Positions 1-13,103 of a stretch of 20,458 bases of DNA are shown here, in pieces; positions within the stretch are counted from its first letter, which is position 1, and every line of letters begins with the position of its first letter. This DNA is from a virus (taxonomy: Duplodnaviria; Heunggongvirae; Uroviricota; Caudoviricetes): positions 1 through 20,458 of IMG/VR virus record IMGVR_UViG_2925914267_000005; one strand, 5' to 3'. Under the pieces are notes generated by a model. The model made no database searches. It saw nothing but the letters and a program-made list of their open reading frames with translations, and was not told the DNA's origin. The position numbers and the translations under genes are program-made.

Positions 1-8
1 TCACTCTG

Positions 9-31
9 CCAGATGGCGCAATGCCATCTGG
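9..31. other. Perfect 9-bp inverted repeat (ccagatggc / gccatctgg, 5-nt loop) in host flank outside the prophage
   Basis: Read directly from sequence; no adjacent T-tract on either strand, so terminator function is uncertain. Confidence 0.3.
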
Positions 32-90
32 TATCACTTAAAGGTATTAAAAACAACTTTTTGTCTTTTTACCTTCCCGTTTCGCTCAAG

Positions 91-260
91 TTAGTATAAA
101 AAAGCTGAATGAGAAACGTAAAATGATATAAATATCAATATATTAAATTAGATTTTGCATAAAAAACAGACTACATAATACTGTAAAACACAACATATGC
201 AGTCACTATGAATCAACTACTTAGATAGCATTAGTGACCTACAACAGAGCATTAGCGCAA
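91..260 (-). other. attR: Prophage attR (P-O-B' junction): 15-bp lambda att core at 91-105 plus lambda attP P arm (about 106-260)
   Basis: Reverse complement of 91-105 is GCTTTTTTATACTAA, followed outward by CTTGAGCGAAACGGG (attB B' side as recalled); reverse complement of 106-260 reads like the lambda P arm (…AGGTCACTAAT…GTTGATTCATAGTGACTGCATATGTTGTGTTTTACAGTATTATG…). Confidence 0.85.
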
Positions 261-418
261 GGTGATTTTTGTCTTCTTGCGCTAATTTTTTGCTAATCCC
301 ACCATTTCTCAAAGATCACAAAGGGGTATGGTTGGTCTGGATGGCTCACCTGATGCAGAAGTATGATTTTGTAGTGACATCATTACCTTAATAGCGAACA
401 TTTCCTTGCCGCCTCGCA

Positions 419-446
419 TTGACGCGAGGTCGCACGGAAGTATAAT
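419..446 (+). promoter_or_regulatory. Putative sigma70 promoter for the acyltransferase gene: -35 TTGACG (419-424), 16-bp spacer, -10 TATAAT (441-446); 6-bp inverted repeat cctcgc/gcgagg (412-417 and 424-429) flanks the -35
   Basis: Hexamers read directly; positioned about 30 bp upstream of the ATG at 479. Confidence 0.5.
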
Positions 447-478
447 TCGTAGTCTTTCTACGTAGTTTAGGGAACAAT

Positions 479-1561
479 ATGTCGTCTAATAATCGACTCC
501 ATTATCTTGATGGTATTCGTGGCTGGGCCGCAACTATTGTTGTCTTCGGGCACACCATGGGGGGCGTGATTGCAATTGACGCACCTAATTTTGTAAATCA
601 TCAATGGATGAGCTTTTTTACAAATGCTCATCTTGCTGTTTTGGTATTTTTTGTTTTATCAGGCTACGTCCTGAGCGTTAGCCAAATCTACTCATCAAAA
701 CGTAATACTGCGGTATCCACCGTTGCAAGATTATTCAGATTGGCTCTTCCGATTCTGTTCGTAAGCCTTGTCGCATATATCATGATGAGGTTAAACCTAT
801 TTTTCAATGTTCAAGCCGCTACTAATGACATATCGAAATCGTGGTTAGGGACATTTTTCAGGTTTGAGCCGTCACTACCTGGTGTATTTTCCTTTTCATT
901 TTTCGATGTATTTTTCGCTTATGATACTCCGACATCATACAACTCTTCATTATGGACCATGCCTATAGAAATGGCTGGGTCAATTCTAATTTATTCATAC
1001 ATAGCTATATTCAGAACTGAAAAATTCAACTGGATAATTTCTTCCATTTTAATAGTTTATTTCTATTTTTATAGCCCATTCATGTTCTGCTTTATGGTTG
1101 GGTATGTTCTGGCTGAACTGAAAAAAATTAACAACCTATACCTGAGTGGTAGAAATGAAATACCGTTGATATTTATTTTCTTTGCCATGATCTATCTGGA
1201 TACATACCATAGGCCGGTTGATGAGATTATTCAGGCGCTTGAGGCGGTAGTATTTGTTGTTGTAATATCTTACAGCAAAACTTTATCATCGCTGTTCTCA
1301 TCAAGAGCATCAAGATTTATGGGCAGGATTTCGTTTTCTCTATATCTAGTTCAGATACTGGTTATTTGCTCATGGTCTTCGTACATGAAGATTTTACTAT
1401 CAAACTCTGGTATTAATATAAATATTGCAGCCTCAATAAACCTCATATCATCCATGGCTTTGTGCATATTAACAGCAAGAGCCATGACTCCTATTGATGA
1501 ATTTAGTGTTAAACACTCCAAAACCATTGCTTTTAAATTATTAAATTTATGCTCTAGGTAA
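479..1561 (+). CDS. Integral-membrane acyltransferase family 3 protein, probable O-antigen/LPS O-acetyltransferase (prophage moron)
   Basis: 360-aa ORF; N-terminal motif LDGIRGWAATIVVFGHT typical of acyltransferase-3 family; multiple hydrophobic segments; markedly AT-rich relative to neighbours. Confidence 0.75.
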   Translation: MSSNNRLHYLDGIRGWAATIVVFGHTMGGVIAIDAPNFVNHQWMSFFTNAHLAVLVFFVLSGYVLSVSQIYSSKRNTAVSTVARLFRLALPILFVSLVAYIMMRLNLFFNVQAATNDISKSWLGTFFRFEPSLPGVFSFSFFDVFFAYDTPTSYNSSLWTMPIEMAGSILIYSYIAIFRTEKFNWIISSILIVYFYFYSPFMFCFMVGYVLAELKKINNLYLSGRNEIPLIFIFFAMIYLDTYHRPVDEIIQALEAVVFVVVISYSKTLSSLFSSRASRFMGRISFSLYLVQILVICSWSSYMKILLSNSGININIAASINLISSMALCILTARAMTPIDEFSVKHSKTIAFKLLNLCSR

Positions 1562-2174
1562 CCAAGTCGTCAAGATGCACTTTAAGCCCCATAAGGGGCT
1601 TTCCATTCGCTCAGGTCTATCGAATCCACCATCCTGGCATACTAAAATGTTAATCGATATGCCATCAATCACTTCTTTCTCTTCATCCATTTCTGCCACG
1701 TAAATTGCGGCAATCGTATGGACGCTTTTCCTCAATTGGTTCATTATTTTTCCGATATGTCACACCCCATATTTAGATTTCAACGTTATTAGATCACTCG
1801 CAAACTGTTCCTTCAGCATTGGATATTTAGCTTGCTAATGCTGCATGATTGCTTCCATCAGTTAAAGATGCAGAACTAAAAGCTAACGTAAGAAATGAAA
1901 CATTCTCTTGATATGCTTTACTTAAGCTTTTCAGCTCTTTTTTGTATAGATAAGCATTTATTGTTGATTCTGAAATAATTTTATACTCCAGCTACTGACA
2001 GAATTTACTATTTGATGAATTGTGTTTATCTCCTAATGAGTGCTTAACATTTTAATTCATTACAATTTCCTTATATTCAAGGTATTTTTCAAGATCTTGC
2101 TCACAACGGAATATTGATACTAATTGACTTTCATCATTAGTTGAAAGTTGGATGTATAGATTCATCAATAGTCC

Positions 2175-3329
2175 TTAAATAGTATACCCACTTACACCAA
2201 CAGTTAAGCTAGATACTGATGATGTTGTCCAAGTGAATGTATAATAAATTGTTTGAGGGTTCTGGATTAGAAGCTCATAGTAAAAATCGACGCCAGTAGA
2301 TCTACTTAAACCAGCATATGCCTGGAAATACCCTACATCCTGGGTATCAGAAGCAATTGAAGCAGCTGCATAACCATCACCTTCCCCTGTGTTACAAAAC
2401 ACATAACCAGTACAGGTTGCTGCGTTTTTCGGGATCGCGTTTGTAAGAGAAATTGGAGTATACCCACCTGGGTTGCTACTGGTTGACAGTACATCAACTC
2501 GCTGGGTAGCGAACTTTCTCCCTCTTTGGTACCCAATTTTTAACAGCGCCCCAGATGTTGTTCCCCACACCGATACCAAAGCGCTCGCCGTATATCCTGC
2601 TGGCATGTTTGCACCACCATATACCGTGGGAGCAATAATAGAAGTGACGTCCTGAGCAAGTAATGCCGAGGTATCTGTCGTCGGGTTATAAATCAGGTAA
2701 ATTGCAACCCAACCACTGGCTGGCGCACTACCAGTATCCATGCCACCCGCCCCAGTCGTGGTGAGATTGATGGTTTTGTTGACCGAGCTTAAACGGTACT
2801 GCTTACCAGATAATGACTCACCAACAATGACTTGATCAGCAGTGAACGTTGCTGATGCCGACGCTATTGCCACGCTCATTTTCTGGTTAACAGCCTGACC
2901 AACCACGCCGGTGAATGATTCTCGCATCTTGAGGTAATCACTTAGCGGCGACCACCCAGCTGAAGAAGTATTAGGGTCGTTTGTGTTGTTGTTGATAGTG
3001 CTGATATAAATCGTTGCGCCGTCATCACTGATGAGAACAGCTCCAAGAGGATACCCTCCAACCGCCGTTGAAAAATCTGAGTCAAAAGCATTAAGAGCGC
3101 CTGCGCTAGACCATCTGCAAAGGGAAGACAACTCATACAAGATTTGATTCATGTCCTGCCCTTTGGGAGGAAGGCCCCCGGCAGATTTCAAAATCATTGT
3201 TATTGGTGGGAATCCTAAATCGTAGGATGCTGTATTATCTCCAGCTGGAGTTGTCGGCAGAAGATCCTCTCTTTGACCATTTACTCCAAAAGGTTTTGGT
3301 TGTTTTTTGGGTGAGTCAGAGCGATTCAT
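2175..3329 (-). CDS. Phage tail fiber protein
   Basis: 384-aa ORF; N-terminal GFPPITMILKSAGGLPPKGQDMNQILYEL resembles tail-collar fibre domain; Ser/Thr/Gly-rich C-terminal region; last gene of the baseplate operon. Confidence 0.7.
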   Translation of the reverse strand: MNRSDSPKKQPKPFGVNGQREDLLPTTPAGDNTASYDLGFPPITMILKSAGGLPPKGQDMNQILYELSSLCRWSSAGALNAFDSDFSTAVGGYPLGAVLISDDGATIYISTINNNTNDPNTSSAGWSPLSDYLKMRESFTGVVGQAVNQKMSVAIASASATFTADQVIVGESLSGKQYRLSSVNKTINLTTTGAGGMDTGSAPASGWVAIYLIYNPTTDTSALLAQDVTSIIAPTVYGGANMPAGYTASALVSVWGTTSGALLKIGYQRGRKFATQRVDVLSTSSNPGGYTPISLTNAIPKNAATCTGYVFCNTGEGDGYAAASIASDTQDVGYFQAYAGLSRSTGVDFYYELLIQNPQTIYYTFTWTTSSVSSLTVGVSGYTI

Positions 3330-3331
3330 AC

Positions 3332-3970
3332 TTAATTCCTATAAAATGTGCCATCATTAAACGGGTAGGCGTCAGATGAAAAACCGAAATAAGGACTAAT
3401 AATTTTTCGAATATTTACCTGAACACCACTAGGAACTGGCATTACTTCATAATTTGTGAGAATAGATTCCTCGTATGGTGCAAGTTCAAACTCGAATGTT
3501 ATTCCAATGGTCATATCTCGATAATTCACACAGTATGCCCTTCCTCTTTGAAAAAATAATATCTTTAAAAACTTGTTGATTTCTGGAATCGTAGCAATAC
3601 TTATGTTCGTAAACGCTTTGCAAAATATGAGTGTTCTGTAAGCCTCGTCACTCAATCTAACATTTGTTGTCTCCTGTGCTCCTCCAAAAAAAGGAGAGTT
3701 GTTGAACGGAGCGGGGTAATTTGGTTCTGCATTATCAGCTTCACTGAATCCGAAGGAATTGGTCTCTATAGGTGAGTTAATATAGCGACTTATCCCTACT
3801 ATTTTCCCCCACATATCCAGGCCGAATGTATCACAGGTAGTCAAATCCCATACTTTTTTAATAAACTCATCAGTGAAATCATCAAGGCTAATTGCCTGAT
3901 TAAAGGTATCAATGATGGATAGTAATTTTTTGCTTGCAGAGTACTGGGTAAGAATTGTGTCCTCCCACAT
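3332..3970 (-). CDS. Phage tail/baseplate protein (P2 gpI / Mu gp48 position)
   Basis: 212-aa ORF between the baseplate J-like gene and the tail fiber gene, matching P2 V-W-J-I-H order; family assignment by position only. Confidence 0.45.
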   Translation of the reverse strand: MWEDTILTQYSASKKLLSIIDTFNQAISLDDFTDEFIKKVWDLTTCDTFGLDMWGKIVGISRYINSPIETNSFGFSEADNAEPNYPAPFNNSPFFGGAQETTNVRLSDEAYRTLIFCKAFTNISIATIPEINKFLKILFFQRGRAYCVNYRDMTIGITFEFELAPYEESILTNYEVMPVPSGVQVNIRKIISPYFGFSSDAYPFNDGTFYRN

Positions 3971-3980
3971 ACATTTCCCC

Positions 3981-5210
3981 CTACGATAATGTAACAGTGA
4001 TATCTGATTCCTGAATGGTTGGAACCTGGTCTATGCCCATAGTCACAGCCGGTCCGTATAGTGAACCATCGAGAGAAACTTCAAGAGACAAAATTCCAAC
4101 TGTATCAGGAGATATTGAAATAACAGGGGCATAGTATTTACCAGCATTTATCGTCGAACCAATTCGTGCCTTTCCAATACCCTCATATCCTCCATTGAAC
4201 ACAGTGACAATCATTTCCTTTACTTGTTTAGTAATATCACTTGGGGGATTTAGTGAAGCATCGACATTTACCTTAAAGTAAACCCGCGTAGGTGATGCCT
4301 TTTGCCATTGCATTACATAAGATGGATATGGCGGCATGTAATTAACGTTATCGTAAACAGTGAACGTTGTATTACCATTCATATTGGCCCCGGGGTTATA
4401 AGTATTGAATATTGACTCAGCAACATCCGTATCAGCCCCGCCATAAACACAAATATAAACAGAATGCGCAAGAATCGGGAAATTCGTTGTTCCTTTATTT
4501 ACTGTTTCTGCAGTTCTGTTTGACCATACGTAAGCATCAAGCACACCATCAGTCGCAAGTAACGCGGCTAATGTAGATGCGTCCTGATTTCGACTGTTTC
4601 TGGCAACTGATTGTCTCCGGCGAGTTTCAAAGGCGATCCGTGATTCAACATCAACACCAACGACTCCAGGGCTAGTATTATTTACAGCATCCCACCCGGA
4701 AACGGCTCGATAAATCTGGTTCAGTGAACCTGCGGCACACGGAATCGGCCCGGTTGTTGTGTTGACAAACTGCACATCAACAGAGCCTGATGAGGGTATT
4801 ACAGCATTATCAATTGACTGATATATATACCCGCTCGTATCCACAGCGGTACTCCCTGCTGGTATTGTTGTTCCAACCTGACCAATGCATGTTGCTGTAA
4901 CAACTGTCCCCTGAGCAGCGATCCGCTCCATAAAGTAAATCCGACCAATCCCGTCCTGGAATCTGCCGGTTGAAAAGTCAGGGTTAATTTGATTAAACAA
5001 ACAAAGAAGCTTGTCGTATTCCTGAGCGATAATTTCAGTGTCAGACTGGGCGATCTGCCCTTGCGGTGAACTCAGTGACTGACTTGCGCCACCGCCAAGG
5101 GCCGTTGACATGTCTGTAAGTCTTCCCGCCAATACATCTGCTATATCGGGGACTGAAAGACCGTTTTCAGTGATGGTTACATCAGGAACAGCCGTATTTA
5201 ATGTCGTCAT
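3981..5210 (-). CDS. Baseplate J-like protein (P2 gpJ / Mu gp47 family)
   Basis: 409-aa ORF; size, position and sequence character consistent with baseplate J family; start overlaps upstream gene by 4 nt. Confidence 0.65.
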   Translation of the reverse strand: MTTLNTAVPDVTITENGLSVPDIADVLAGRLTDMSTALGGGASQSLSSPQGQIAQSDTEIIAQEYDKLLCLFNQINPDFSTGRFQDGIGRIYFMERIAAQGTVVTATCIGQVGTTIPAGSTAVDTSGYIYQSIDNAVIPSSGSVDVQFVNTTTGPIPCAAGSLNQIYRAVSGWDAVNNTSPGVVGVDVESRIAFETRRRQSVARNSRNQDASTLAALLATDGVLDAYVWSNRTAETVNKGTTNFPILAHSVYICVYGGADTDVAESIFNTYNPGANMNGNTTFTVYDNVNYMPPYPSYVMQWQKASPTRVYFKVNVDASLNPPSDITKQVKEMIVTVFNGGYEGIGKARIGSTINAGKYYAPVISISPDTVGILSLEVSLDGSLYGPAVTMGIDQVPTIQESDITVTLS

Positions 5211-5566
5211 AAGGTGGCCTGTGCAATATTACCATTGATATCTGTAACGCGGATTGTCCCGCGAGTTGTGCGTGTATTCTTGTCAAAGAAAACTGACGCC
5301 AGAGCATCCTCAACAACGGGTAATTTGAGTGCTTCAGCCTGCATTTTCTGAGCAATAAAACCAGGAGATGGTCGCCTGCCAAGAACTTCTGCCTTCCATG
5401 GGATCCCAAGTGTATTGTCGTAATAACACTCTCCTGAAAACACCAGGCATGCACTGGCGACATCCTGAGCAACAGAATATGATTCTTCTGCGATCGCCAG
5501 ATTGCCATTTCCGTCAAGCGTCAAGTCCCACGTAGAAGTGTCCAGCTGCATAGTTCTGTATGTCAT
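5207..5566 (-). CDS. Small baseplate wedge protein (P2 gpW / Mu gp46-like)
   Basis: 119-aa ORF between the V-like and J-like genes; translational coupling at both ends. Confidence 0.5.
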   Translation of the reverse strand: MTYRTMQLDTSTWDLTLDGNGNLAIAEESYSVAQDVASACLVFSGECYYDNTLGIPWKAEVLGRRPSPGFIAQKMQAEALKLPVVEDALASVFFDKNTRTTRGTIRVTDINGNIAQATL

Positions 5567-6255
5567 GTCGGTTTATCCGTTGCATTGGAATTTATTGTTG
5601 ACCCACCACTTTGTATTCCTGAAACAGAATGTTTGTGATTGTTATAGTTGTCCCTTAAATTTTTAACAGTAGATGACTGTGAGTCTGCGTTATCCTGAAT
5701 ATCGCCACTAACTTTAAGTAAAGGCGTATTCATGTTGACTCCATCAGGAGCATCAATATTTAACGATGAGCATTTGATATTTAGTGGGTTAGGCGTGGTT
5801 ATATTTATTGCACCGTCAGCGAATTCAATGAATTGAGTAGGTGAAATGTTTAATACCCCACCAAGATAAATCGCATCCGATTTACTGTGTCGTCTTTTGC
5901 TTCCAGGTACTGATTCTTTACGATTTTTTCTTACCAGTGATGTGTCTTTGTCGCATACCGCAATCAGACCAATATCACCTGCCACAGGGTCCATAATTAC
6001 AGCGCTGTTTCCTCTCTGCAACCGCCATACGGGAAGATCATATAAAACCGAGTTGGAAATCATTTTTCCTGTACGGTCTGTTCTGGTTAGTAAAGGAAGA
6101 ACATCAACAACTAAATCTGGTGCTTCCCCTCTGACTTCCTGAACTTTCGCTAACTCAATGAAGAAATATCCAGACATCAGCATCTCAAAAATATATTCCT
6201 GAGATTGAGCCTCACTTACCTGAGCAGGCGTTGGAGTAAATAGTTGCTTATCCAT
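5563..6255 (-). CDS. Baseplate assembly/spike protein V-like
   Basis: Start chosen at the ATG (MDKQLFTP…) that overlaps the upstream stop as ATGGATAA; the longer ORF to 6348 would overlap the upstream gene by about 100 nt; motif PVWRLQRGNSAVIMDPVAGDIGLIAV fits gpV-like fold. Confidence 0.5.
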   Translation of the reverse strand: MDKQLFTPTPAQVSEAQSQEYIFEMLMSGYFFIELAKVQEVRGEAPDLVVDVLPLLTRTDRTGKMISNSVLYDLPVWRLQRGNSAVIMDPVAGDIGLIAVCDKDTSLVRKNRKESVPGSKRRHSKSDAIYLGGVLNISPTQFIEFADGAINITTPNPLNIKCSSLNIDAPDGVNMNTPLLKVSGDIQDNADSQSSTVKNLRDNYNNHKHSVSGIQSGGSTINSNATDKPT

Positions 6256-7129
6256 TATTCTGTTGCGCCTCTGCTCTTTGTTCCGCTGTTCTGGCGGCAA
6301 TACATATTGAGTGCCATGAACCATTTGGCATCCATGATGATAATTCATGCCGAACGGAGGTTAACTTATACCTTCCGCTTGCATGTGGTAGTTCTGTTTT
6401 GATATCCACATATCTTCCAATGCAAAGGAGAGATGAATATTGCGTCTGAAACATCAGCCCCCCATTTGAAAATACAGGATATCCAACAAGTCCGTATTCT
6501 CTGGATATAAACGGAATTACATCATCTCTGTTTTTTTCTGAAGGCCAGAACTCTACTTTTGCAGGTGGCGTAGCTGACATTGCCAGTCCATAATCTGAAC
6601 AGACTCTATAAAGTTGCTCAAAAACACTTCCTTCAAAATGCGGACTTCCTGATGTTGTCATCCCTTTTACATTATTAAACACAGCTTCATAACCTGCACT
6701 TGCACAAATGGATGAGATGACATCTTCAACACTTTGCGCCCCCTGTGCTGTAAACGGGCTTGCTGGCATGTTCTGCAAATCAACATTAGAAGAAGCTGTT
6801 ATCATCAGGCTGCTTTCAGGAGCAGAATTCATGTTTGCTATTGATGAAAGCATCGTGCCAGAGAAAACAAGAGAATCATCGGCAAATACTTCAACATTTA
6901 GCTTCTGCCCTTCTCCAATAATACCATCAGCCTTCCCTGATATATCAGCAAGCCTTTCAATTCCTAACCCGTAAAGAGATATATCAGCCTGAGCGCCTCC
7001 CCGACCGGTAACAAAGTTCAGGGATACTGTTGACTTAACATTTCTGATGGAGATTTTATTGTTCCCATTTTTATCAAATGCTGATGATTCATTCGTGAAG
7101 TCAAACCGAAGACTGTGATTTTTATACAA
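6248..7129 (-). CDS. Phage tail/baseplate protein (possible hub, Mu gp44 / P2 gpD position)
   Basis: ORF runs to 7237, but the ATG starts would overlap the upstream gene by at least 80 nt; an in-frame TTG at 7129 preceded by GAGGA (8-nt spacer) overlaps the upstream stop; start uncertain. Confidence 0.4.
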   Translation of the reverse strand: MYKNHSLRFDFTNESSAFDKNGNNKISIRNVKSTVSLNFVTGRGGAQADISLYGLGIERLADISGKADGIIGEGQKLNVEVFADDSLVFSGTMLSSIANMNSAPESSLMITASSNVDLQNMPASPFTAQGAQSVEDVISSICASAGYEAVFNNVKGMTTSGSPHFEGSVFEQLYRVCSDYGLAMSATPPAKVEFWPSEKNRDDVIPFISREYGLVGYPVFSNGGLMFQTQYSSLLCIGRYVDIKTELPHASGRYKLTSVRHELSSWMPNGSWHSICIAARTAEQRAEAQQNNG

Positions 7130-7424
7130 GCTCGTTTTCCTCGATGTAGTACAGCAAGTAACGGCTACCCAAGCCTTCCCATTGCGGATCCGATTCCCCA
7201 TCATTATCAATGAAAATAAGGTCTCCCTTAAATCCAAGGTAGGAATATCTTACCATCTTATTCCCATACAGACATGGAACGCCCTGCATAATTGGGACTT
7301 CATTAACAGTTAAATCCATGTACATAAAACTCTGTCGCTGAACAAGTTTTATATTACATTGCTGACCAGACAGACTTACCGAAATGGACTGAGATTTGCT
7401 GGGAAGAACAGATACTGTAATCAT
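7122..7424 (-). CDS. Hypothetical phage tail-module protein (100 aa)
   Basis: Intact ORF with an in-frame stop 9 nt upstream and an AAGG ribosome-binding site; first retained gene after the IS600-like element. Confidence 0.4.
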   Translation of the reverse strand: MITVSVLPSKSQSISVSLSGQQCNIKLVQRQSFMYMDLTVNEVPIMQGVPCLYGNKMVRYSYLGFKGDLIFIDNDGESDPQWEGLGSRYLLYYIEENELV

Positions 7425-7573
7425 GTACTCGCCTTAACTATATTTTTTGCAATATCTGCCGCTTTTTTTGTTGCGCTGTTTGTGACTTCGAGTATTGGTT
7501 TGGATACCGTGAGGTAGCCTGAGTTTAACGGACACTCCTTCCTGAAATAGAATGGCATCAGAAGGAGCTAATA

Positions 7574-7876
7574 ATGAGCAGAAAAACCCAACGTTACTCT
7601 AAAGAGTTCAAAGCCGAAGCTGTCAGAACGGTTCTTGAAAATCAACTTTCGATCAGTGAAGGCGCTTCCCGATTATCTCTTCCTGAAGGCACTTTAGGGC
7701 AATGGGTTACCGCCGCCAGAAAAGGGCTCGGTACTCCTGGTTCCCGCACGGTGGCTGAACTGGAATCTGAAATTCTGCAACTGCGTAAGGCGTTAAATGA
7801 AGCTCGCCTTGAGCGAGATATATTAAAAAAAGCAACAGCGTATTTTGCACAGGAGTCGCTGAAAAATACGCGTTAA
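7574..7876 (+). CDS. IS3-family transposase OrfA (helix-turn-helix)
   Basis: 100-aa ORF MSRKTQRYSKEFKAEAVR…; contains the frameshift window near its 3' end. Confidence 0.85.
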   Translation: MSRKTQRYSKEFKAEAVRTVLENQLSISEGASRLSLPEGTLGQWVTAARKGLGTPGSRTVAELESEILQLRKALNEARLERDILKKATAYFAQESLKNTR

Positions 7877-7911
7877 TCGAACAATGGCGACAACAATTTC
7901 CCATTGAAGCG

Positions 7912-8730
7912 ATGTGTCAGGTATTTGGTGTATCCAGGAGCGGTTATTACAACTGGGTACAGCATGAACCCTCAGACAGAAAACAAAGTGATGAGCGGCT
8001 AAAACTGGAGATTAAGGTGGCACATATCCGCACTCGCGAAACATATGGAACCCGGCGGCTCCAGACGGAGCTGGCAGAGAATGGCATCATCGTTGGTCGT
8101 GACCGACTGGCACGTCTTCGTAAGGAGCTAAGGCTACGCTGTAAGCAGAAACGCAAGTTCAGAGCGACTACGAACTCGAACCACAATCTGCCAGTTGCGC
8201 CAAATCTGCTGAACCAGACGTTCGCTCCTACAGCACCAAATCAGGTCTGGGTGGCGGACCTGACGTATGTTGCCACACAGGAGGGATGGTTGTACCTCGC
8301 TGGCATCAAAGATGTTTATACGTGCGAAATTGTCGGCTACGCCATGGGAGAGCGCATGACAAAAGAGCTGACAGGTAAAGCCCTGTTTATGGCGCTCAGG
8401 AGCCAGCGCCCACCTGCCGGGCTAATCCACCACTCTGATCGAGGTTCACAGTACTGCGCATACGATTACCGGGTCATACAGGAGCAGTTTGGTCTGAAAA
8501 CATCAATGTCGCGTAAAGGTAACTGTTACGACAACGCTCCGATGGAAAGCTTCTGGGGAACGCTGAAAAATGAGAGCCTGAGCCACTATCGTTTTAATAA
8601 CCGGGATGAAGCCATCTCAGTAATACGGGAATACATTGAGATTTTCTACAATCGTCAGCGTCGTCACTCTCGTCTGGGGAATATCTCCCCGGCAGCCTTC
8701 AGGGAAAAATATCATCAGATAGCTGCTTAA
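7912..8730 (+). CDS. IS3-family transposase OrfB (DDE catalytic domain), normally made as OrfAB fusion by -1 frameshift
   Basis: 272-aa ORF with integrase-core-like motifs (…HSDRGSQY…NAPMESFWGTLK…). Confidence 0.85.
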   Translation: MCQVFGVSRSGYYNWVQHEPSDRKQSDERLKLEIKVAHIRTRETYGTRRLQTELAENGIIVGRDRLARLRKELRLRCKQKRKFRATTNSNHNLPVAPNLLNQTFAPTAPNQVWVADLTYVATQEGWLYLAGIKDVYTCEIVGYAMGERMTKELTGKALFMALRSQRPPAGLIHHSDRGSQYCAYDYRVIQEQFGLKTSMSRKGNCYDNAPMESFWGTLKNESLSHYRFNNRDEAISVIREYIEIFYNRQRRHSRLGNISPAAFREKYHQIAA

Positions 8731-8994
8731 AAAAAGAACAAATGGTAGTGTCCGCTATTGCCAGTACACCTCAGGGAAATATGTCGATAAATGGGCAATA
8801 CGAACGACGGCAATGATTGCCAGAGAACTTGGTAAACAGAACAACAAGGCTGCCTGATGGTGGCCTTTATTTTTGGCATAAACAACAGAATAAACACTGC
8901 ACTGTGTATTCATTCCAACGAGTGAATACACGGAGCAATGTCGCTCGTAACTAAACAGGAGCCAACTTGTTCTGATTATTGGAAATCTTCTTTG

Positions 8995-9020
8995 CCCTCC
9001 AGTGTGAGGGCAATTTTTTT
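8995..9020 (+). terminator. Possible intrinsic terminator (ccctc-cagtgt-gaggg plus T8) just upstream of the coiled-coil gene
   Basis: 5-bp GC stem and T-run read directly; short stem, so weak. Confidence 0.3.
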
Positions 9021-9033
9021 TAACGGGGGAAAT

Positions 9034-10002
9034 ATGAGTGAAGTAACAGATTTAGTTGTTATTGAAAAAGCAAATGCAATGACTGTATTTCAGTCTGCCG
9101 ACCAGATTGAAGAAATCCTTCAAAAGGTTGAACGTGAAGTTATGTCCTTTGTGCCTGATATCACAACGGCAAAGGGCAGAAAGGAGATCGCTTCTCTGGC
9201 GTATAAAGTTGCGCAGACGAAAACATATCTCGATGGTCTTGGCAAAGACCTTGTTGCTGAACTGAAGGAAATTCCAAAGCTAATTGATGCTAACCGCAAG
9301 ACAGTGCGTGATCGCCTTGATGAGCTGAAAGCCAAGGCACGCCAGCCTCTTACTGATTATGAGGAAGAACAGGCGCGGATTAAAGCCGAAGAAGAAGCTA
9401 AGGCAGCAGCTGAAGCTCTCGCAAAGCAAATTGAGTCTGACCATGAAATAGCGATTTTGATGGATCGCGAATTTGACCGCCAAAGAGAAGAGGCAAGACT
9501 CAAAGCGGAGCAGGAAAAGCGAGAGCATGAAGAACGCTTAAAAAGAGAAGCTGAAGAGAAAGCCAGAGCTGAAGCCGAAGCAAAGGCAAAAGCCGAAATT
9601 GAAGCAGCAGCAAGGCGAGAAGCAGAAGCTAAGGCCGCAGCGGAACGTGCAGAGCGTGAACGCATTGAAGCCGAGCAACGAGCACAGCGCGAAGCAAAAG
9701 AGGCAGCAGAACGAGCTGAAAGAGAAAAGCAGGCAGCAATTGAAGCAGAACGCCGAAAAGCACAGGAGGAGGCAGAACGAATCCGGCGCGAGGCTGAAGC
9801 AAAAGAGCAAGCCAGAATAGCAGAAGAAAAAAGAATCAAGGACGAAGAAGAGCGTAGAGCAAAGGATAAAGCTCACCGGAGAGAAGTAAATAACAAAATA
9901 CTTGCTGACCTTATCAAGGTTGGCGCATCAGAAGATGTTGCTAAAAATATCATAATAGCCATCGCAAAAGGCGAAGTATTCGCAACAAAAATAACCTACT
10001 AA
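9034..10002 (+). CDS. Hypothetical phage early protein with long E/A/K/R-rich predicted coiled-coil region (TolA-domain-II-like composition)
   Basis: ATG at 9034 preceded by GGGGGA; ORF could extend upstream to 8938; central ~200 aa is low-complexity EAKAR-type; occupies the position of ea10/ral/sieB upstream of cIII. Confidence 0.6.
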   Translation: MSEVTDLVVIEKANAMTVFQSADQIEEILQKVEREVMSFVPDITTAKGRKEIASLAYKVAQTKTYLDGLGKDLVAELKEIPKLIDANRKTVRDRLDELKAKARQPLTDYEEEQARIKAEEEAKAAAEALAKQIESDHEIAILMDREFDRQREEARLKAEQEKREHEERLKREAEEKARAEAEAKAKAEIEAAARREAEAKAAAERAERERIEAEQRAQREAKEAAERAEREKQAAIEAERRKAQEEAERIRREAEAKEQARIAEEKRIKDEEERRAKDKAHRREVNNKILADLIKVGASEDVAKNIIIAIAKGEVFATKITY

Positions 10003-10685: not shown

Positions 10686-11471
10686 ATGAGTACAGCACTC
10701 GCAACGCTGGCAGGGAAGCTGGCTGAACGTGTCGGCATGGATTCTGTCGACCCACAGGAACTGATCACCACTCTTCGCCAGACAGCATTTAAAGGCGATG
10801 CCAGCGATGCGCAGTTCATCGCATTGCTGATCGTCGCCAACCAGTACGGCCTTAATCCGTGGACGAAAGAAATTTACGCCTTCCCTGATAAGCAGAACGG
10901 CATCGTTCCGGTGGTGGGCGTTGATGGCTGGTCCCGTATCATCAATGAAAACCAGCAGTTTGATGGCATGGACTTTGAGCAGGACAATGAATCCTGCACA
11001 TGCCGGATTTACCGCAAGGACCGTAATCATCCGATCTGCGTTACCGAGTGGATGGATGAATGCCGCCGCGAACCATTCAAAACCCGCGAAGGCAGAGAAA
11101 TCACGGGGCCGTGGCAGTCGCATCCCAAACGGATGTTACGGCATAAAGCCATGATTCAGTGTGCCCGTCTCGCCTTCGGATTTGCTGGTATCTATGACAA
11201 GGATGAAGCCGAGCGCATTGTCGAAAATACCGCATACACTGCAGAACGTCAGCCGGAACGCGACATCACTCCGGTTAACGATGAAACCATGCAGGAGATT
11301 AACACTCTGCTGATTGCCCTGGATAAAACATGGGATGACGACTTATTGCCGCTCTGTTCCCAAATATTTCGCCGCGACATTCGCGCATCGTCAGAACTGA
11401 CACAGGCCGAAGCAGTGAAAGCTCTTGGATTCCTGAAACAGAAAGCCACTGAGCAGAAGGTGGCAGCATGA
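10686..11471 (+). CDS. bet: Lambda Red beta (single-strand annealing protein)
   Basis: 261-aa [41 protein letters not shown]… near-identical to lambda Bet as recalled. Confidence 0.95.
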
Positions 11472-12148
11472 CACCGGACATTATCCTGCAGCGTACCGGG
11501 ATCGACGTGAGAGCTGTCGAACAGGGGGATGATGCATGGCACAAATTACGGCTCGGCGTCATCACCGCTTCAGAAGTTCACAACGTGATAGCAAAGCCCC
11601 GATCAGGAAAGAAGTGGCCTGACATGAAAATGTCCTACTTCCACACCCTGCTGGCTGAGGTTTGCACCGGTGTGGCTCCGGAAGTTAACGCTAAAGCGCT
11701 GGCCTGGGGAAAACAGTACGAGAACGACGCCAGAACCCTGTTTGAGTTCACTTCCGGCGTAAATGTTATTGAATCCCCGATCATCTATCGCGACGAAAGT
11801 ATGCGCACCGCCTGCTCTCCCGATGGTTTATGCAGTGACGGCAATGGCCTTGAGCTGAAATGCCCGTTTACCTCCCGGGATTTCATGAAGTTCCGGCTCG
11901 GTGGTTTCGAGGCCATAAAGTCGGCTTACATGGCCCAGGTGCAGTACAGCATGTGGGTGACGCGAAAAGATGCCTGGTACTTTGCCAACTATGACCCGCG
12001 TATGAAGCGTGAAGGCCTGCATTATGTCGTGGTTGAGCGGGATGAAAAGTACATGGCGAGTTTTGACGAGATGGTGCCGGAGTTCATCGAAAAAATGGAC
12101 GAGGCACTGGCTGAAATTGGTTTTGTATTTGGGGAGCAATGGCGATGA
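11468..12148 (+). CDS. exo: Lambda exonuclease (Red alpha)
   Basis: 226-aa [68 protein letters not shown]… near-identical to lambda Exo as recalled; ATGA overlap with bet. Confidence 0.95.
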
Positions 12149-12327
12149 CGCATCCTCACGATAATATCCGGGTAGGCGCGATCACTTTCGTCTACTCCGT
12201 TACAAAGCGAGGCTGGGTATTTCCCGGCCTTTCTGTTATCCAAAATCCACTGAAAGCCCAGCGGCTGGCTGAGGAGATAAATAATAAACGAGGGGCTGTA
12301 TGCACAAAGCATCTCCCGTTGAGTTAA
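12145..12327 (+). CDS. Lambda orf60a-like hypothetical protein
   Basis: [56 protein letters not shown]…; ATG overlaps exo stop (ATGA); alternative ATG at 12139. Confidence 0.8.
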
Positions 12328-12491
12328 GAACGAGTATCGAGATGGCACATAGCCTCGCTCAAATTGGAGTCAGGTTTGTGCCAATACCAGTAGAAACAGA
12401 CGAAGAATTTCATACGTTAGCCACATCCCTTTCACAAAAGCTGGAAATGATGGTGGCGAAAGCAGAAGCAGATGAGAGAGACCAGGTATGA
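12300..12491 (+). CDS. Lambda orf63-like hypothetical protein
   Basis: 63-aa ORF in lambda order between orf60a and orf61. Confidence 0.75.
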   Translation: MHKASPVELRTSIEMAHSLAQIGVRFVPIPVETDEEFHTLATSLSQKLEMMVAKAEADERDQV

Positions 12492-12571
12492 CAACCACTG
12501 AATGCATTTTTCTGGCAGCGGGCTTCATATTCTGTGTGCTTATGCTTGCCGACATGGGACTTGTTCAATGA
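12488..12571 (+). CDS. Candidate 27-aa hydrophobic micro-protein (MTTTECIFLAAGFIFCVLMLADMGLVQ)
   Basis: Not in ORF track (too short); start ATG overlaps orf63 stop as ATGA and its stop overlaps orf61 start as ATGA; single predicted transmembrane helix. Confidence 0.35.
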   Translation: MTTTECIFLAAGFIFCVLMLADMGLVQ

Positions 12572-12783
12572 CACCTCAGCAAGAAAACGCCCTTCGCAGT
12601 ATTGCCCGTCAGGCTAATTATGAAATCAAAAAAGCCAGACAGCGGTTTCCGGATAAAAACGTCGATGACATTTGCCGTAGCGTACTGAAGAAGCACCGCG
12701 AAACGGTAACGCTGATGGGATTCACACCGACTCACTTAAGTCTGGCAATCGGTATGTTAAACGGCGTCTTTAAGGAACGGTGA
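12568..12783 (+). CDS. Lambda orf61-like hypothetical protein
   Basis: 71-aa ORF MTPQQENALRSIARQANYEIKKARQRFPDKNVDDICRSVLKKHRETVTLMGFTPTHLSLAIGMLNGVFKER matches lambda orf61 as recalled. Confidence 0.8.
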   Translation: MTPQQENALRSIARQANYEIKKARQRFPDKNVDDICRSVLKKHRETVTLMGFTPTHLSLAIGMLNGVFKER

Positions 12784-12804
12784 ACATGAAAAGCAAAATC
12801 ATCA

Positions 12805-12828
12805 GGGAGCTACAGGCTCCTTTTTTAT
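12805..12828 (+). terminator. Intrinsic terminator-like hairpin (ggagc-tacag-gctcc plus T6) after orf61
   Basis: Stem and T-run read directly. Confidence 0.5.
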
Positions 12829-12881
12829 TATTCGCATTCACCCTCAAGCGTATTAACCAACAATTCAGGGATTAATGAAAG

Positions 12882-13103
12882 ATGGCGGACATCATTGATT
12901 CAGCATCAGAAATTGAAGAATTACAGCGCAATACAGCAATAAAAATGCGCCGCCTGAACCACCAGGCTATATCTGCCACTCATTGTTGTGAGTGTGGCGA
13001 TCCCATAGATGAGCGAAGACGCCTGGCCGTTCAGGGTTGTCGGACTTGTGCAAGTTGCCAGGAAGTTCTGGAGCTTATCAGTAAACAGAGAGGTTCGAAG
13101 TGA
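12882..13103 (+). CDS. TraR/DksA-family C4-type zinc finger protein
   Basis: 73-aa ORF with CxxC…CxxC (CCECGDPIDERRRLAVQGCRTCASC) characteristic of phage/plasmid TraR-like proteins. Confidence 0.7.
   Translation: MADIIDSASEIEELQRNTAIKMRRLNHQAISATHCCECGDPIDERRRLAVQGCRTCASCQEVLELISKQRGSK

What the first reader, a model, noticed from the sequence alone, without database searches (positions are those of the whole stretch)
12488..12571. Unannotated 27-codon hydrophobic micro-ORF translationally coupled between orf63 and orf61
The ORF MTTTECIFLAAGFIFCVLMLADMGLVQ shares ATGA overlaps with the stop of orf63 and the start of orf61, an arrangement typical of genuinely translated coupled genes. The peptide is essentially a single transmembrane helix, a class that includes small toxins, holin-like and regulatory membrane peptides that automated annotation usually misses.
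Basis: seen in the sequence. Interest (0 to 1): 0.45.

Follow-up and report, generated by a model that had tools for sequence, protein, structure and literature searches.

The report
Overlooked 27-codon membrane-peptide gene in lambda
Between two early genes of lambda-like phages lies a 27-codon gene for a very hydrophobic peptide; its substitution pattern indicates it is really protein-coding, it has been hidden under a mis-drawn 'orf61' annotation, and its function is untested.

Summary

The window is the exo-xis part of the pL operon of a lambdoid prophage. Phage lambda itself carries the identical peptide (complement 30925-31008), and the segment occurs in 3144 of 5426 complete E. coli genomes.

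Across 292 related sequences, substitutions fit this frame:
- This frame: 14 synonymous, 15 non-synonymous; omega about 0.4, or 0.22 without singletons (p = 0.001).
- The orf61 control gives about the same signal.
- The rival frame, the 93-aa "ZapA"/lambda orf61 N-terminal extension, looks neutral (omega about 1).

Supporting points:
- One mosaic junction falls exactly on the ATG. A methyltransferase gene replaces orf63 there and the ATGA overlap is kept.
- Orf61 variants with other N-termini lack the extension.
- The ORF fills the only sizeable gap in an operon joined mostly by 4-nt overlaps.

The peptide is hydrophobic enough for one membrane helix and has no Lys or Arg. It matches no known family. 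It is not wholly unannotated: some GenBank and UniProt records list it as hypothetical. Translation and function remain unproven. Toxin or holin readings have no specific support.

The parts
12488..12571 (+). 27-codon micro-ORF encoding MTTTECIFLAAGFIFCVLMLADMGLVQ. It equals lambda NC_001416 complement 30925-31008.
   Evidence: Searches give the ORF and searches show the identical peptide in lambda; 14 synonymous and 15 non-synonymous mutations, omega 0.40, p=0.012; without singletons 12 and 7, omega 0.22, p=0.0011; synonymous variants are the more frequent ones, p=0.010; intact in 308 of 318 sequences.
12488..12491 (+). ATGA overlap: start codon of the micro-ORF over the TGA stop of orf63.
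   Evidence: The same ATGA overlap is kept when the upstream gene is an N6-adenine methyltransferase and in the diverged orf63 clade.
12568..12571 (+). ATGA overlap: TGA stop of the micro-ORF over the ATG of the orf61 core. A common natural variant reads GTGA.
   Evidence: The orf61 ATG has the weakest Shine-Dalgarno pairing scored in the operon (-3.9 kcal/mol), which suggests it depends on coupling.
12474..12487 (+). Modest Shine-Dalgarno-like purine run (GAGAGAGACCAGGT) upstream of the micro-ORF start.
   Evidence: -5.6 kcal/mol with a spacer of about 6 nt. In the methyltransferase context the equivalent site is GGGAGG at -10.3 kcal/mol.
12300..12491 (+). orf63 (DUF1382), the upstream gene.
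   Evidence: Pfam PF07131, E=7.7e-31.
12568..12783 (+). orf61 core, 71 aa, the downstream gene. This is the start supported here.
   Evidence: SfI-type and other N-terminal variants start at this position and have no upstream extension. Own-frame omega is 0.50. AlphaFold pLDDT is 74-90 for the core.
12502..12567 (+). Frame-B 'N-terminal extension' of orf61 as drawn in many records (93-aa 'ZapA'). Judged not coding in this frame.
   Evidence: omega about 0.98, with 28 carriers of synonymous and 310 of non-synonymous variants; poor Shine-Dalgarno pairing (-3.8 kcal/mol, 13-nt spacer); pLDDT 43-51. Lambda's longer version of this frame is cut by TGA in the window.

Best explanation

Proposed mechanism:
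1. A ribosome finishing orf63, or whichever gene lies upstream, terminates at TGA and restarts at the overlapping ATG. A modest Shine-Dalgarno sequence helps.
2. It makes a 27-residue, uncharged-flank hydrophobic peptide.
3. On terminating, it restarts at the overlapping ATG of orf61, which has almost no Shine-Dalgarno sequence of its own.
4. The peptide most likely sits in the inner membrane as a single short helix (about C6-V26). There it acts like other bacterial and phage micro-membrane proteins, binding or perturbing a host membrane protein soon after infection or induction.

Shown here: the ORF and its overlaps, frame-specific purifying selection, behaviour as a mosaic module, and hydrophobicity.

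Inferred: translation itself, membrane insertion, and a host membrane target. The target is unknown.

The stretch is not the N-terminus of Orf61, although lambda's orf61 and the 93-aa 'ZapA' annotation read it that way.
For: 1. Selection. In 292 indel-free sequences (114 haplotypes) from phage, IMG/VR and metagenome contigs, codons 2-27 carry 14 synonymous and 15 non-synonymous distinct mutations, against an expected synonymous fraction of 0.27. That gives omega 0.40, p=0.012; without singletons it is 12 and 7, omega 0.22, p=0.0011. Carriers number 287 for synonymous and 51 for non-synonymous variants, and synonymous variants are the commoner ones (Mann-Whitney p=0.010). The orf61 control gives omega 0.50, or 0.33 without singletons.
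2. Other forward frames. In the same 78 nt they look neutral or worse: omega 0.98 and 1.45. One three-allele site (T/G/A at 12499) is Thr in this frame but stop, Gly or Arg in frame B.
3. Diverged clade. At about 89% identity it differs by 5 synonymous and 2 non-synonymous changes and keeps both overlaps.
4. Mosaic junction. In PhiR30_1, L109, L110 and E. coli hits H216-219, orf63 is replaced by an N6-adenine methyltransferase gene. Homology starts exactly at the ATG, the ATGA overlap is kept, and a GGGAGG Shine-Dalgarno sequence lies upstream.
5. Operon style. 8 of 11 junctions are ATGA or GTGA overlaps. Without this ORF there would be a 76-nt untranslated gap, against 6 nt or less elsewhere.
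6. Orf61 start. Orf61 relatives with other N-termini (MTIEHNN..., MTLKEES..., MKKTIAT...) start at or near the 12568 position.
7. Preservation. The ORF is intact in 308 of 318 sequences, versus 288 of 318 for orf61. It is intact in lambda, where orf61 is frameshifted.
8. Hydropathy is in the top 2% of small ORFs in the window.
9. The RNA is unusually unstructured (z=+2.56), with no Rfam match and no promoter or terminator inside.
10. Circumstantial: infection with Phi24B lacking exo-xis induces degP and htpX 5-8-fold less than wild type (PMC10789677 Table 4).
Against: - No direct evidence of translation was obtainable. The lambda ribosome-profiling paper is not held. A review of it lists only a 7-aa and a 31-aa extra ORF in this region (PMC8614690).
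- Divergence is shallow, with all copies at 89% identity or more. The selection test therefore rests on only 29 mutations, and codon-position bias alone is not significant (15/7/7, p=0.11).
- An antisense ORF (12370-12555) shares third positions and shows part of the signal (12 synonymous, 17 non-synonymous, p=0.03).
- Natural knock-outs exist. These are ATG>ATA in 2 sequences, a 14-nt deletion in Escherichia sp. E1V33 that moves the coupled ATG into the orf61 frame, and fusions or truncations.
- SfI-type phages and diverged DUF1382 loci lack the ORF.
- The hydrophobic core without a charge is only 16 residues, there are no flanking basic residues, and the position-independent Hessa sum is borderline at about 0 kcal/mol.
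- The region is non-essential for lambda plaque formation (PMC10695390).
Confidence: 0.65

Rival explanations
1. The stretch is the N-terminal extension of Orf61, read in the other forward frame. This is how RefSeq draws it (93-aa 'cell division protein ZapA', start 12502) and how lambda's orf61 is drawn (start equivalent to 12472). The micro-ORF would then be an accidental overlapping frame.
For: - Frame B is open from 12502 in 112 of 114 haplotypes.
- Many records and PHROG 303 include the extension.
- In Escherichia sp. E1V33 the ATG that overlaps the upstream stop is in this frame.
Against: - Frame-B omega is about 0.98. Common polymorphisms are non-synonymous in it: 310 carriers against 28.
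- Lambda's longer extension is cut by a TGA in the window and in about a quarter of natural copies.
- The ATG at 12502 has poor Shine-Dalgarno pairing, -3.8 kcal/mol with a 13-nt spacer.
- Orf61 relatives with other N-termini have no extension.
- AlphaFold pLDDT is 43-51 over residues 1-20 against 74-90 in the core. A published model also used residues 24-93 (PMC8614690).
- The E1V33 junction is found in none of 5426 E. coli genomes.
Confidence: 0.08
2. The ORF is translated only as a relay. Its translation hands ribosomes from orf63 to orf61 through the two ATGA overlaps, and the peptide itself has no function.
For: - Both ends are 4-nt overlaps, and orf61 has the weakest Shine-Dalgarno pairing in the operon.
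- SfI-type orf61, which lacks the micro-ORF, has its own GAGG site at a good spacing.
- The peptide has no homologues outside this narrow phage group.
Against: - A pure relay should tolerate any sense codon. Instead amino-acid changes are under-represented and rare (omega 0.2-0.4, frequency test p=0.01).
- The strongly hydrophobic composition is unexplained by a relay.
- A relay could be far shorter than 27 codons.
Confidence: 0.15
3. The stretch is a non-coding spacer, and the open frame and overlaps are chance.
For: - The ORF is short, and 28% of shuffles of its interior remain open.
- ORF integrity is equally high in several frames because divergence is low.
- A review of the lambda ribosome-profiling work does not list it.
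Against: - Frame-specific synonymous excess.
- A mosaic junction exactly at the ATG, with the overlap kept.
- It would be the only gap of more than 6 nt in the operon.
- The joint probability of both overlaps, the right phase and an open frame is about 0.006 (my estimate).
- Hydropathy is in the top 2%.
- There is no RNA structure or Rfam hit that would give a spacer a role.
Confidence: 0.08
4. The conserved frame belongs to the antisense ORF 12370-12555 (minus strand, 61 aa). Its third codon positions coincide with those of the micro-ORF.
For: It shows a partial synonymous excess in the overlapping stretch: 12 synonymous and 17 non-synonymous, p=0.03; without singletons 10 and 9, p=0.007.
Against: - All 3 mutations that discriminate between the two frames favour the sense frame.
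- Two high-frequency synonymous sites (offsets 71 and 80) lie outside the antisense ORF.
- There is no signal where it overlaps orf63.
- No promoter-like site lies nearby beyond chance expectation.
- The methyltransferase junction cuts it in the middle.
Confidence: 0.03

Closest known systems
Bacterial single-helix micro-membrane proteins that modulate larger membrane proteins (for example YohP 27 aa, KdpF 29 aa, AcrZ, MgtS, CydX). This comparison is from general knowledge; YohP is described as a 27-aa membrane protein in PMC7549839.
   Same: Length of about 27-30 residues, one hydrophobic stretch and no recognisable domain. Like KdpF, it lacks basic residues. It is also easily missed by gene callers and by tryptic proteomics.
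   Different: There is no sequence similarity. It is encoded by a phage early operon rather than the host. The uninterrupted hydrophobic core is short at 16 residues, with an Asp at position 22. Membrane location and partner are untested.
Other small host-directed products of the lambda pL operon and exo-xis region (Kil, CIII, Orf63, Orf73/TraR-like, Ea8.5).
   Same: It shares the operon, the early expression, small size and non-essentiality in the laboratory. The region is linked to the lysis-lysogeny bias and to host physiology (PMC8614690, PMC6213356, PMC9239242).
   Different: The characterised ones are soluble proteins, including regulators such as the RNA-polymerase-binding Orf73. This product would be a hydrophobic, probably membrane-embedded peptide, and it has never been studied on its own.
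Type I toxin peptides and Hok-like or holin-like small membrane peptides (TisB, ShoB, DinQ, Ibs, Hok; phage holins).
   Same: A short hydrophobic peptide of similar length.
   Different: It has no promoter of its own, no antisense RNA and no stable mRNA fold. It has no charged tail. It sits inside a polycistronic early operon, not in a toxin-antitoxin locus or a lysis cassette. Toxicity is untested.
The neighbouring small ORF 12780/12786-12875 (29-31 aa, MKSKIIRELQAPFLLFAFTLKRINQQFRD). By length it may be the 31-aa extra ORF that a review attributes to lambda ribosome profiling.
   Same: A small ORF in the same operon, joined to orf61 by a GTGA overlap and partly hydrophobic.
   Different: That ORF is already annotated in several phage and RefSeq records and has basic residues. 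The 27-codon ORF is not annotated there.

Membership tests
Protein-coding gene (as opposed to a chance ORF) | Excess of synonymous over non-synonymous change in this frame and not in the alternative frames | tested here: met
   frame A omega 0.40 (p=0.012), or 0.22 without singletons (p=0.0011). Frame B gives 0.98 and the third frame 1.45; frequency test p=0.010. The sample is small, at 29 mutations.
Protein-coding gene (as opposed to a chance ORF) | Direct evidence of translation (ribosome footprints with a start peak, or a detected product) | not testable with these tools
   The lambda ribosome-profiling paper is not held. The peptide has no Lys or Arg, so tryptic proteomics would miss it.
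Translationally coupled operon gene | Start codon overlapping the upstream stop, and stop overlapping the downstream start, kept across relatives and across different upstream genes | tested here: met
   The ATGA overlap is kept with orf63 clade 1, orf63 clade 2 and the methyltransferase. The downstream overlap reads ATGA or GTGA.
Single-pass small membrane protein | A hydrophobic segment long enough to span the bilayer (about 18-21 residues) | tested here: inconclusive
   the 19-21-residue Kyte-Doolittle window scores 2.3-2.4, above the usual 1.6 cut-off. However, the charge-free core is 16 residues, Asp22 lies inside the 21-residue window, and the simple Hessa sum is about 0 kcal/mol. No dedicated predictor was available.
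Single-pass small membrane protein | Membrane localisation | not testable with these tools
   This needs fractionation or PhoA/GFP fusions.
Type I toxin | Own promoter, a cis- or trans-encoded antisense RNA, and a structured mRNA that limits translation | tested here: not met
   There is no promoter-like site near it and no Rfam family. The RNA is less structured than shuffles, z=+2.56. The ORF is embedded in the pL operon.
Type I toxin | Growth arrest or membrane depolarisation when expressed | not testable with these tools
   An experiment is required.
Holin | Position in the lysis cassette next to an endolysin, and a transmembrane domain followed by a charged C-terminal tail | tested here: not met
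   It lies between orf63 and orf61 in the early recombination/exo-xis block. The C-terminus ADMGLVQ has no basic residues.
Orf61 (PHROG 303; 'ZapA' in RefSeq) N-terminal extension | The extension is conserved as protein and present in family members with diverged N-termini | tested here: not met
   Frame-B omega is about 1. The SfI-type, P0038, P0040 and P0049 variants lack it. Its pLDDT is low.
Any described protein family (Pfam, NCBIfam, PHROGs) | A significant profile match | tested here: not met
   Only insignificant hits to hydrophobic segments were found (E of 0.03 or worse, below cut-offs).

The most novel reading that the evidence does not exclude
The micro-peptide, rather than Orf61, may be the effector behind at least the lambda 'orf61' phenotypes. 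In lambda PaPa the Orf61 core is frameshifted and modelled as unfolded, while the micro-ORF is intact. The published delta-orf61 deletions also removed the micro-ORF. The peptide would act in the inner membrane on a host factor that biases the lysis-lysogeny decision (for example the FtsH/HflKC system that degrades CII). It could also explain the exo-xis-dependent induction of the envelope-stress genes degP and htpX.
Probability: 0.12. Interest if true: 0.65.

Novelty: new member of a known kind. Interest (0 to 1): 0.45.

Why it matters
Lambda is the reference temperate phage, and its exo-xis region influences prophage induction in Shiga-toxin phages.

If this ORF is a gene, four things follow:
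- Lambda's orf61 and the widespread 93-aa 'ZapA' models have the wrong N-terminus. The 'ZapA' name itself rests on a sub-threshold Pfam match (E=0.07).
- Published orf61 deletion, over-expression and two-hybrid results (PMC6213356) used a construct that mixes two genes. They need re-reading.
- A membrane-active peptide present in prophages of more than half of complete E. coli genomes would join the list of early phage effectors.
- It shows how a historical annotation can hide a small gene from ribosome-profiling analyses, because footprints on it are credited to the overlapping annotated ORF.

Tried and rejected
- Distant homologues. tblastn of the peptide against 50,697 phage records found only the near-identical family, with one spurious hit at E=5.
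- Diverged DUF1382 (orf63-like) loci in Klebsiella phages, Stx2a phages and Phi05_2388 have no comparable ORF after them.
- GTDB genomes gave only Escherichia copies plus lambda DNA contaminating unrelated assemblies.
- The peptide is too short for the search for homologous proteins and for the structure and contig look-up tools.
- A scan for the diverged clade by its upstream 20-mer found a single viral contig.
- Literature. The lambda ribosome-profiling paper and the global phage small-ORF paper are not held. The peptide string occurs in no held paper. No supplement is held for the lambda translation-efficiency paper.
- An RNA-element reading was rejected. There is no Rfam hit and the fold is weaker than shuffles.
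- ORF integrity across haplotypes does not discriminate frames, because divergence is too low.
- Codon-position counts alone were not significant.
- The same selection test on the neighbouring 29-aa ORF failed for lack of sequences: 23 sequences and 4 mutations.

Full report
**What is there.** The window's plus strand carries the early leftward (pL) operon of a lambdoid prophage. In order, the genes are bet 10686-11471, exo 11468-12148, orf60a 12145-12327, orf63 12300-12491, orf61 ending at 12783, a TraR-like orf73 at 12882-13103, and further on xis and int. At 12488-12571 there is an ATG-to-TGA frame of 27 codons, MTTTECIFLAAGFIFCVLMLADMGLVQ. Its ATG overlaps the TGA of orf63 as ATGA. Its TGA overlaps the ATG at 12568 as ATGA.

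**How public records treat it.** None of the inspected phage or RefSeq records annotates this ORF. They draw orf61 in one of two ways:
- as 71 aa from the 12568-equivalent ATG;
- as 93 aa from the 12502-equivalent ATG, often named 'cell division protein ZapA'.

Lambda itself (NC_001416) has the identical peptide at complement 30925-31008. Its annotated orf61 (30839-31024) starts still further upstream, in the other frame, reads straight across the micro-ORF, and then ends early because of an extra A in an A-run. In lambda the micro-ORF is thus hidden under a composite orf61.

The exact peptide does exist in protein collections as 'hypothetical protein' from some GenBank E. coli genomes and in UniRef (A0A0A2SGE8_ECOLX; 981 contigs). 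It is therefore uncharacterised rather than strictly unannotated. It matches no Pfam, NCBIfam or PHROG family. No held paper contains its sequence.

**Distribution.** The segment occurs in about 180 phage records at 90% identity or more and in 3144 of 5426 complete E. coli genomes, at 4269 places. Outside Escherichia, only lambda DNA contaminating other assemblies was found. Diverged orf63-like genes in Klebsiella phages, Stx2a phages and others are followed by different genes and have no comparable ORF. The gene, if real, is therefore confined to a narrow and shallow clade.

**Which frame is coding?** I collected 341 anchored copies from phage records, IMG/VR and metagenome contigs. The anchor was a 21-mer inside orf63, outside the ORF.

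| Measure over codons 2-27, in 292 indel-free copies (114 haplotypes) | Micro-ORF frame | Orf61-extension frame (B) | Third forward frame | orf61 in its own frame (control) |
|---|---|---|---|---|
| Synonymous / non-synonymous distinct mutations | 14 / 15 | 8 / 21 | 6 / 23 | 27 / 34 |
| Omega | 0.40 (p=0.012) | 0.98 | 1.45 | 0.50 |
| Omega without singletons | 0.22 (12 / 7, p=0.0011) | about 1.05 | about 2.0 | 0.33 |
| Carriers, synonymous vs non-synonymous | 287 vs 51 | 28 vs 310 | 24 vs 314 | 748 vs 144 |

The expected synonymous fraction is 0.27.
- In the micro-ORF frame, synonymous variants are also the more frequent ones (Mann-Whitney p=0.010). The same test gives 0.0015 for orf61 in its own frame and 0.84 for frame B.
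- The site at 12499 has three common alleles. All three encode Thr in the micro-ORF frame, but stop, Gly or Arg in frame B.
- A diverged clade at about 89% identity differs by 5 synonymous and 2 non-synonymous changes and keeps both overlaps.

Caveats on the selection test:
- Only 29 mutations are involved.
- Codon-position bias alone is not significant (15/7/7, p=0.11).
- An antisense ORF (12370-12555) shares third positions and shows part of the signal. However, the three discriminating mutations all favour the sense frame, and two high-frequency synonymous sites lie outside that antisense ORF.

**Mosaic evidence.**
- In phage PhiR30_1, two IMG/VR contigs and several E. coli genomes, orf63 is replaced by an N6-adenine methyltransferase gene. 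Homology to the window begins exactly at the micro-ORF ATG. That ATG again overlaps the upstream TGA, and a strong GGGAGG site precedes it.
- In SfI-type phages a tgt-like gene is followed directly by an orf61 starting MTIEHNN. This start is at the 12568-equivalent position and has its own GAGG site, with neither micro-ORF nor frame-B extension.
- Other Orf61 variants have unrelated N-termini and likewise no extension.
- AlphaFold gives pLDDT of 43-51 for the first 20 residues of the 93-aa model and 74-90 for the core. A published model likewise used residues 24-93 (PMC8614690).

**Operon logic.** With this ORF counted, 8 of 11 consecutive junctions in the operon are ATGA or GTGA overlaps, and the other gaps are 6 nt or less. 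Without it there would be a 76-nt untranslated gap.

Shine-Dalgarno pairing:
- micro-ORF ATG: -5.6 kcal/mol, or -10.3 kcal/mol in the methyltransferase context;
- frame-B ATG at 12502: -3.8 kcal/mol with a 13-nt spacer;
- orf61 ATG: -3.9 kcal/mol, the weakest scored in the operon, which suggests orf61 depends on re-initiation after the micro-ORF.

The RNA is less structured than shuffles (z=+2.56). It has no Rfam match and no promoter- or terminator-like site inside.

**Counter-examples.** Integrity is 308 of 318 for the micro-ORF and 288 of 318 for orf61. At least two of the ten apparent micro-ORF losses are offset artefacts from upstream indels. Most orf61 losses are the lambda-type frameshift. 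Natural losses of the micro-ORF include:
- ATG>ATA in two contigs;
- a last-codon stop;
- a stop loss;
- a fusion to another ORF in an O111:H8 prophage;
- an Orf63-peptide fusion caused by a 2-nt deletion;
- a 14-nt deletion in Escherichia sp. E1V33 that puts the coupled ATG into the orf61 frame.

The E1V33 junction is found in none of the 5426 E. coli genomes.

**The peptide.**
- GRAVY is 1.62, third of 190 small ORFs in the window. The best 19-21-residue Kyte-Doolittle window scores 2.3-2.4.
- The charge-free core is only 16 residues (C6-A21) and is followed by Asp22.
- The simple Hessa sum is about 0 kcal/mol.
- There are no basic residues, so orientation cannot be predicted and trypsin would not cut the peptide.

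A single membrane helix is plausible but not shown.

**Mechanism proposed.** The ORF is translated by termination-reinitiation from the upstream gene, and it passes ribosomes on to orf61. Its product is a hydrophobic micro-protein that most likely inserts in the inner membrane and acts on a host membrane component early after infection or induction. The ORF, the overlaps, the frame-specific constraint and the modular behaviour are shown here. Translation, localisation and target are inferred.

Circumstantially, wild-type Phi24B induces degP and htpX 5-8-fold more than a mutant lacking exo-xis (PMC10789677 Table 4). The published delta-orf61 mutants replaced the annotated orf61, which includes this ORF (PMC6213356). 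The region is dispensable for plaque formation (PMC10695390).

**Comparison and verdict.** It works most like bacterial single-helix micro-membrane proteins, but it is a member of no described family. Type I toxin and holin memberships fail on the features that could be tested. It is best filed as a new member of a known kind: a small hydrophobic accessory peptide in a phage early operon. My confidence that it is truly coding is about 0.65.

The main practical consequence is that the orf61 and 'ZapA' gene models, and the experiments built on them, need correction.

Noticed in passing
window 12780-12875 (GTG start) or 12786-12875 (ATG start), + strand: A second small ORF of 29-31 aa, MKSKIIRELQAPFLLFAFTLKRINQQFRD. 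Its GTG overlaps the orf61 stop as GTGA. It is annotated in several phage and RefSeq records, once as 'putative secreted protein'. By length it may be the 31-aa extra ORF that a review attributes to lambda ribosome profiling. My selection test had too few sequences: 23 sequences and 4 mutations.
   Followed up: partly
window 12804-12822 plus the following T-run, + strand: A terminator-like hairpin (AGGGAGCTACAGGCTCCTT followed by TTTTATTATT) lies inside the 29-aa ORF, in the middle of the pL operon.
   Followed up: no
L004 (lambda NC_001416) 30839-31024; window 12472-12783: Lambda's orf61 is a composite. It has an out-of-frame 5' part that crosses the micro-ORF, and a 3' end truncated by one extra A in an A-run relative to natural relatives. 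The 71-aa core is intact in most wild copies.
   Followed up: yes
window 12568-12780: The RefSeq name 'cell division protein ZapA' for Orf61 rests on a sub-threshold Pfam match: PF05164, E=0.07, 13.9 bits against a cut-off of 23.8. It is probably a misnomer. Published modelling suggests a homeodomain-like three-helix fold (PMC8614690).
   Followed up: partly
L013-L026 and other loci: Lambda-type DNA carrying the laboratory frameshift appears in assemblies labelled Shewanella, Bradyrhizobium, Pseudomonas, Paenibacillus, Kitasatospora and others. This is almost certainly lambda control or contaminant DNA in those assemblies.
   Followed up: no
L114 701-874 (E. coli O111:H8 prophage); protein P0085: Two rearranged variants. 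In L114 the first 10 codons of the micro-ORF are fused to an unrelated ORF that RefSeq marks as a pseudogene. In P0085 an 89-aa Orf63-micro-peptide fusion arises from a 2-nt deletion in the GAGAGAGAG run.
   Followed up: partly
L012 371-1438 (Escherichia sp. E1V33); L008 423-1175 (phage SfI): The slot upstream of orf61 is a hot spot for cargo genes. Examples are a 355-aa ORF with an FDGQHR motif in E1V33 (family not tested), a tgt-like queuine tRNA-ribosyltransferase in SfI, and an N6-adenine methyltransferase in PhiR30_1.
   Followed up: no
window 1-10000: No phage record covers more than about a third of the window. The left half, with several minus-strand ORFs at 2175-7237, differs from lambda and was not examined.
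   Followed up: no
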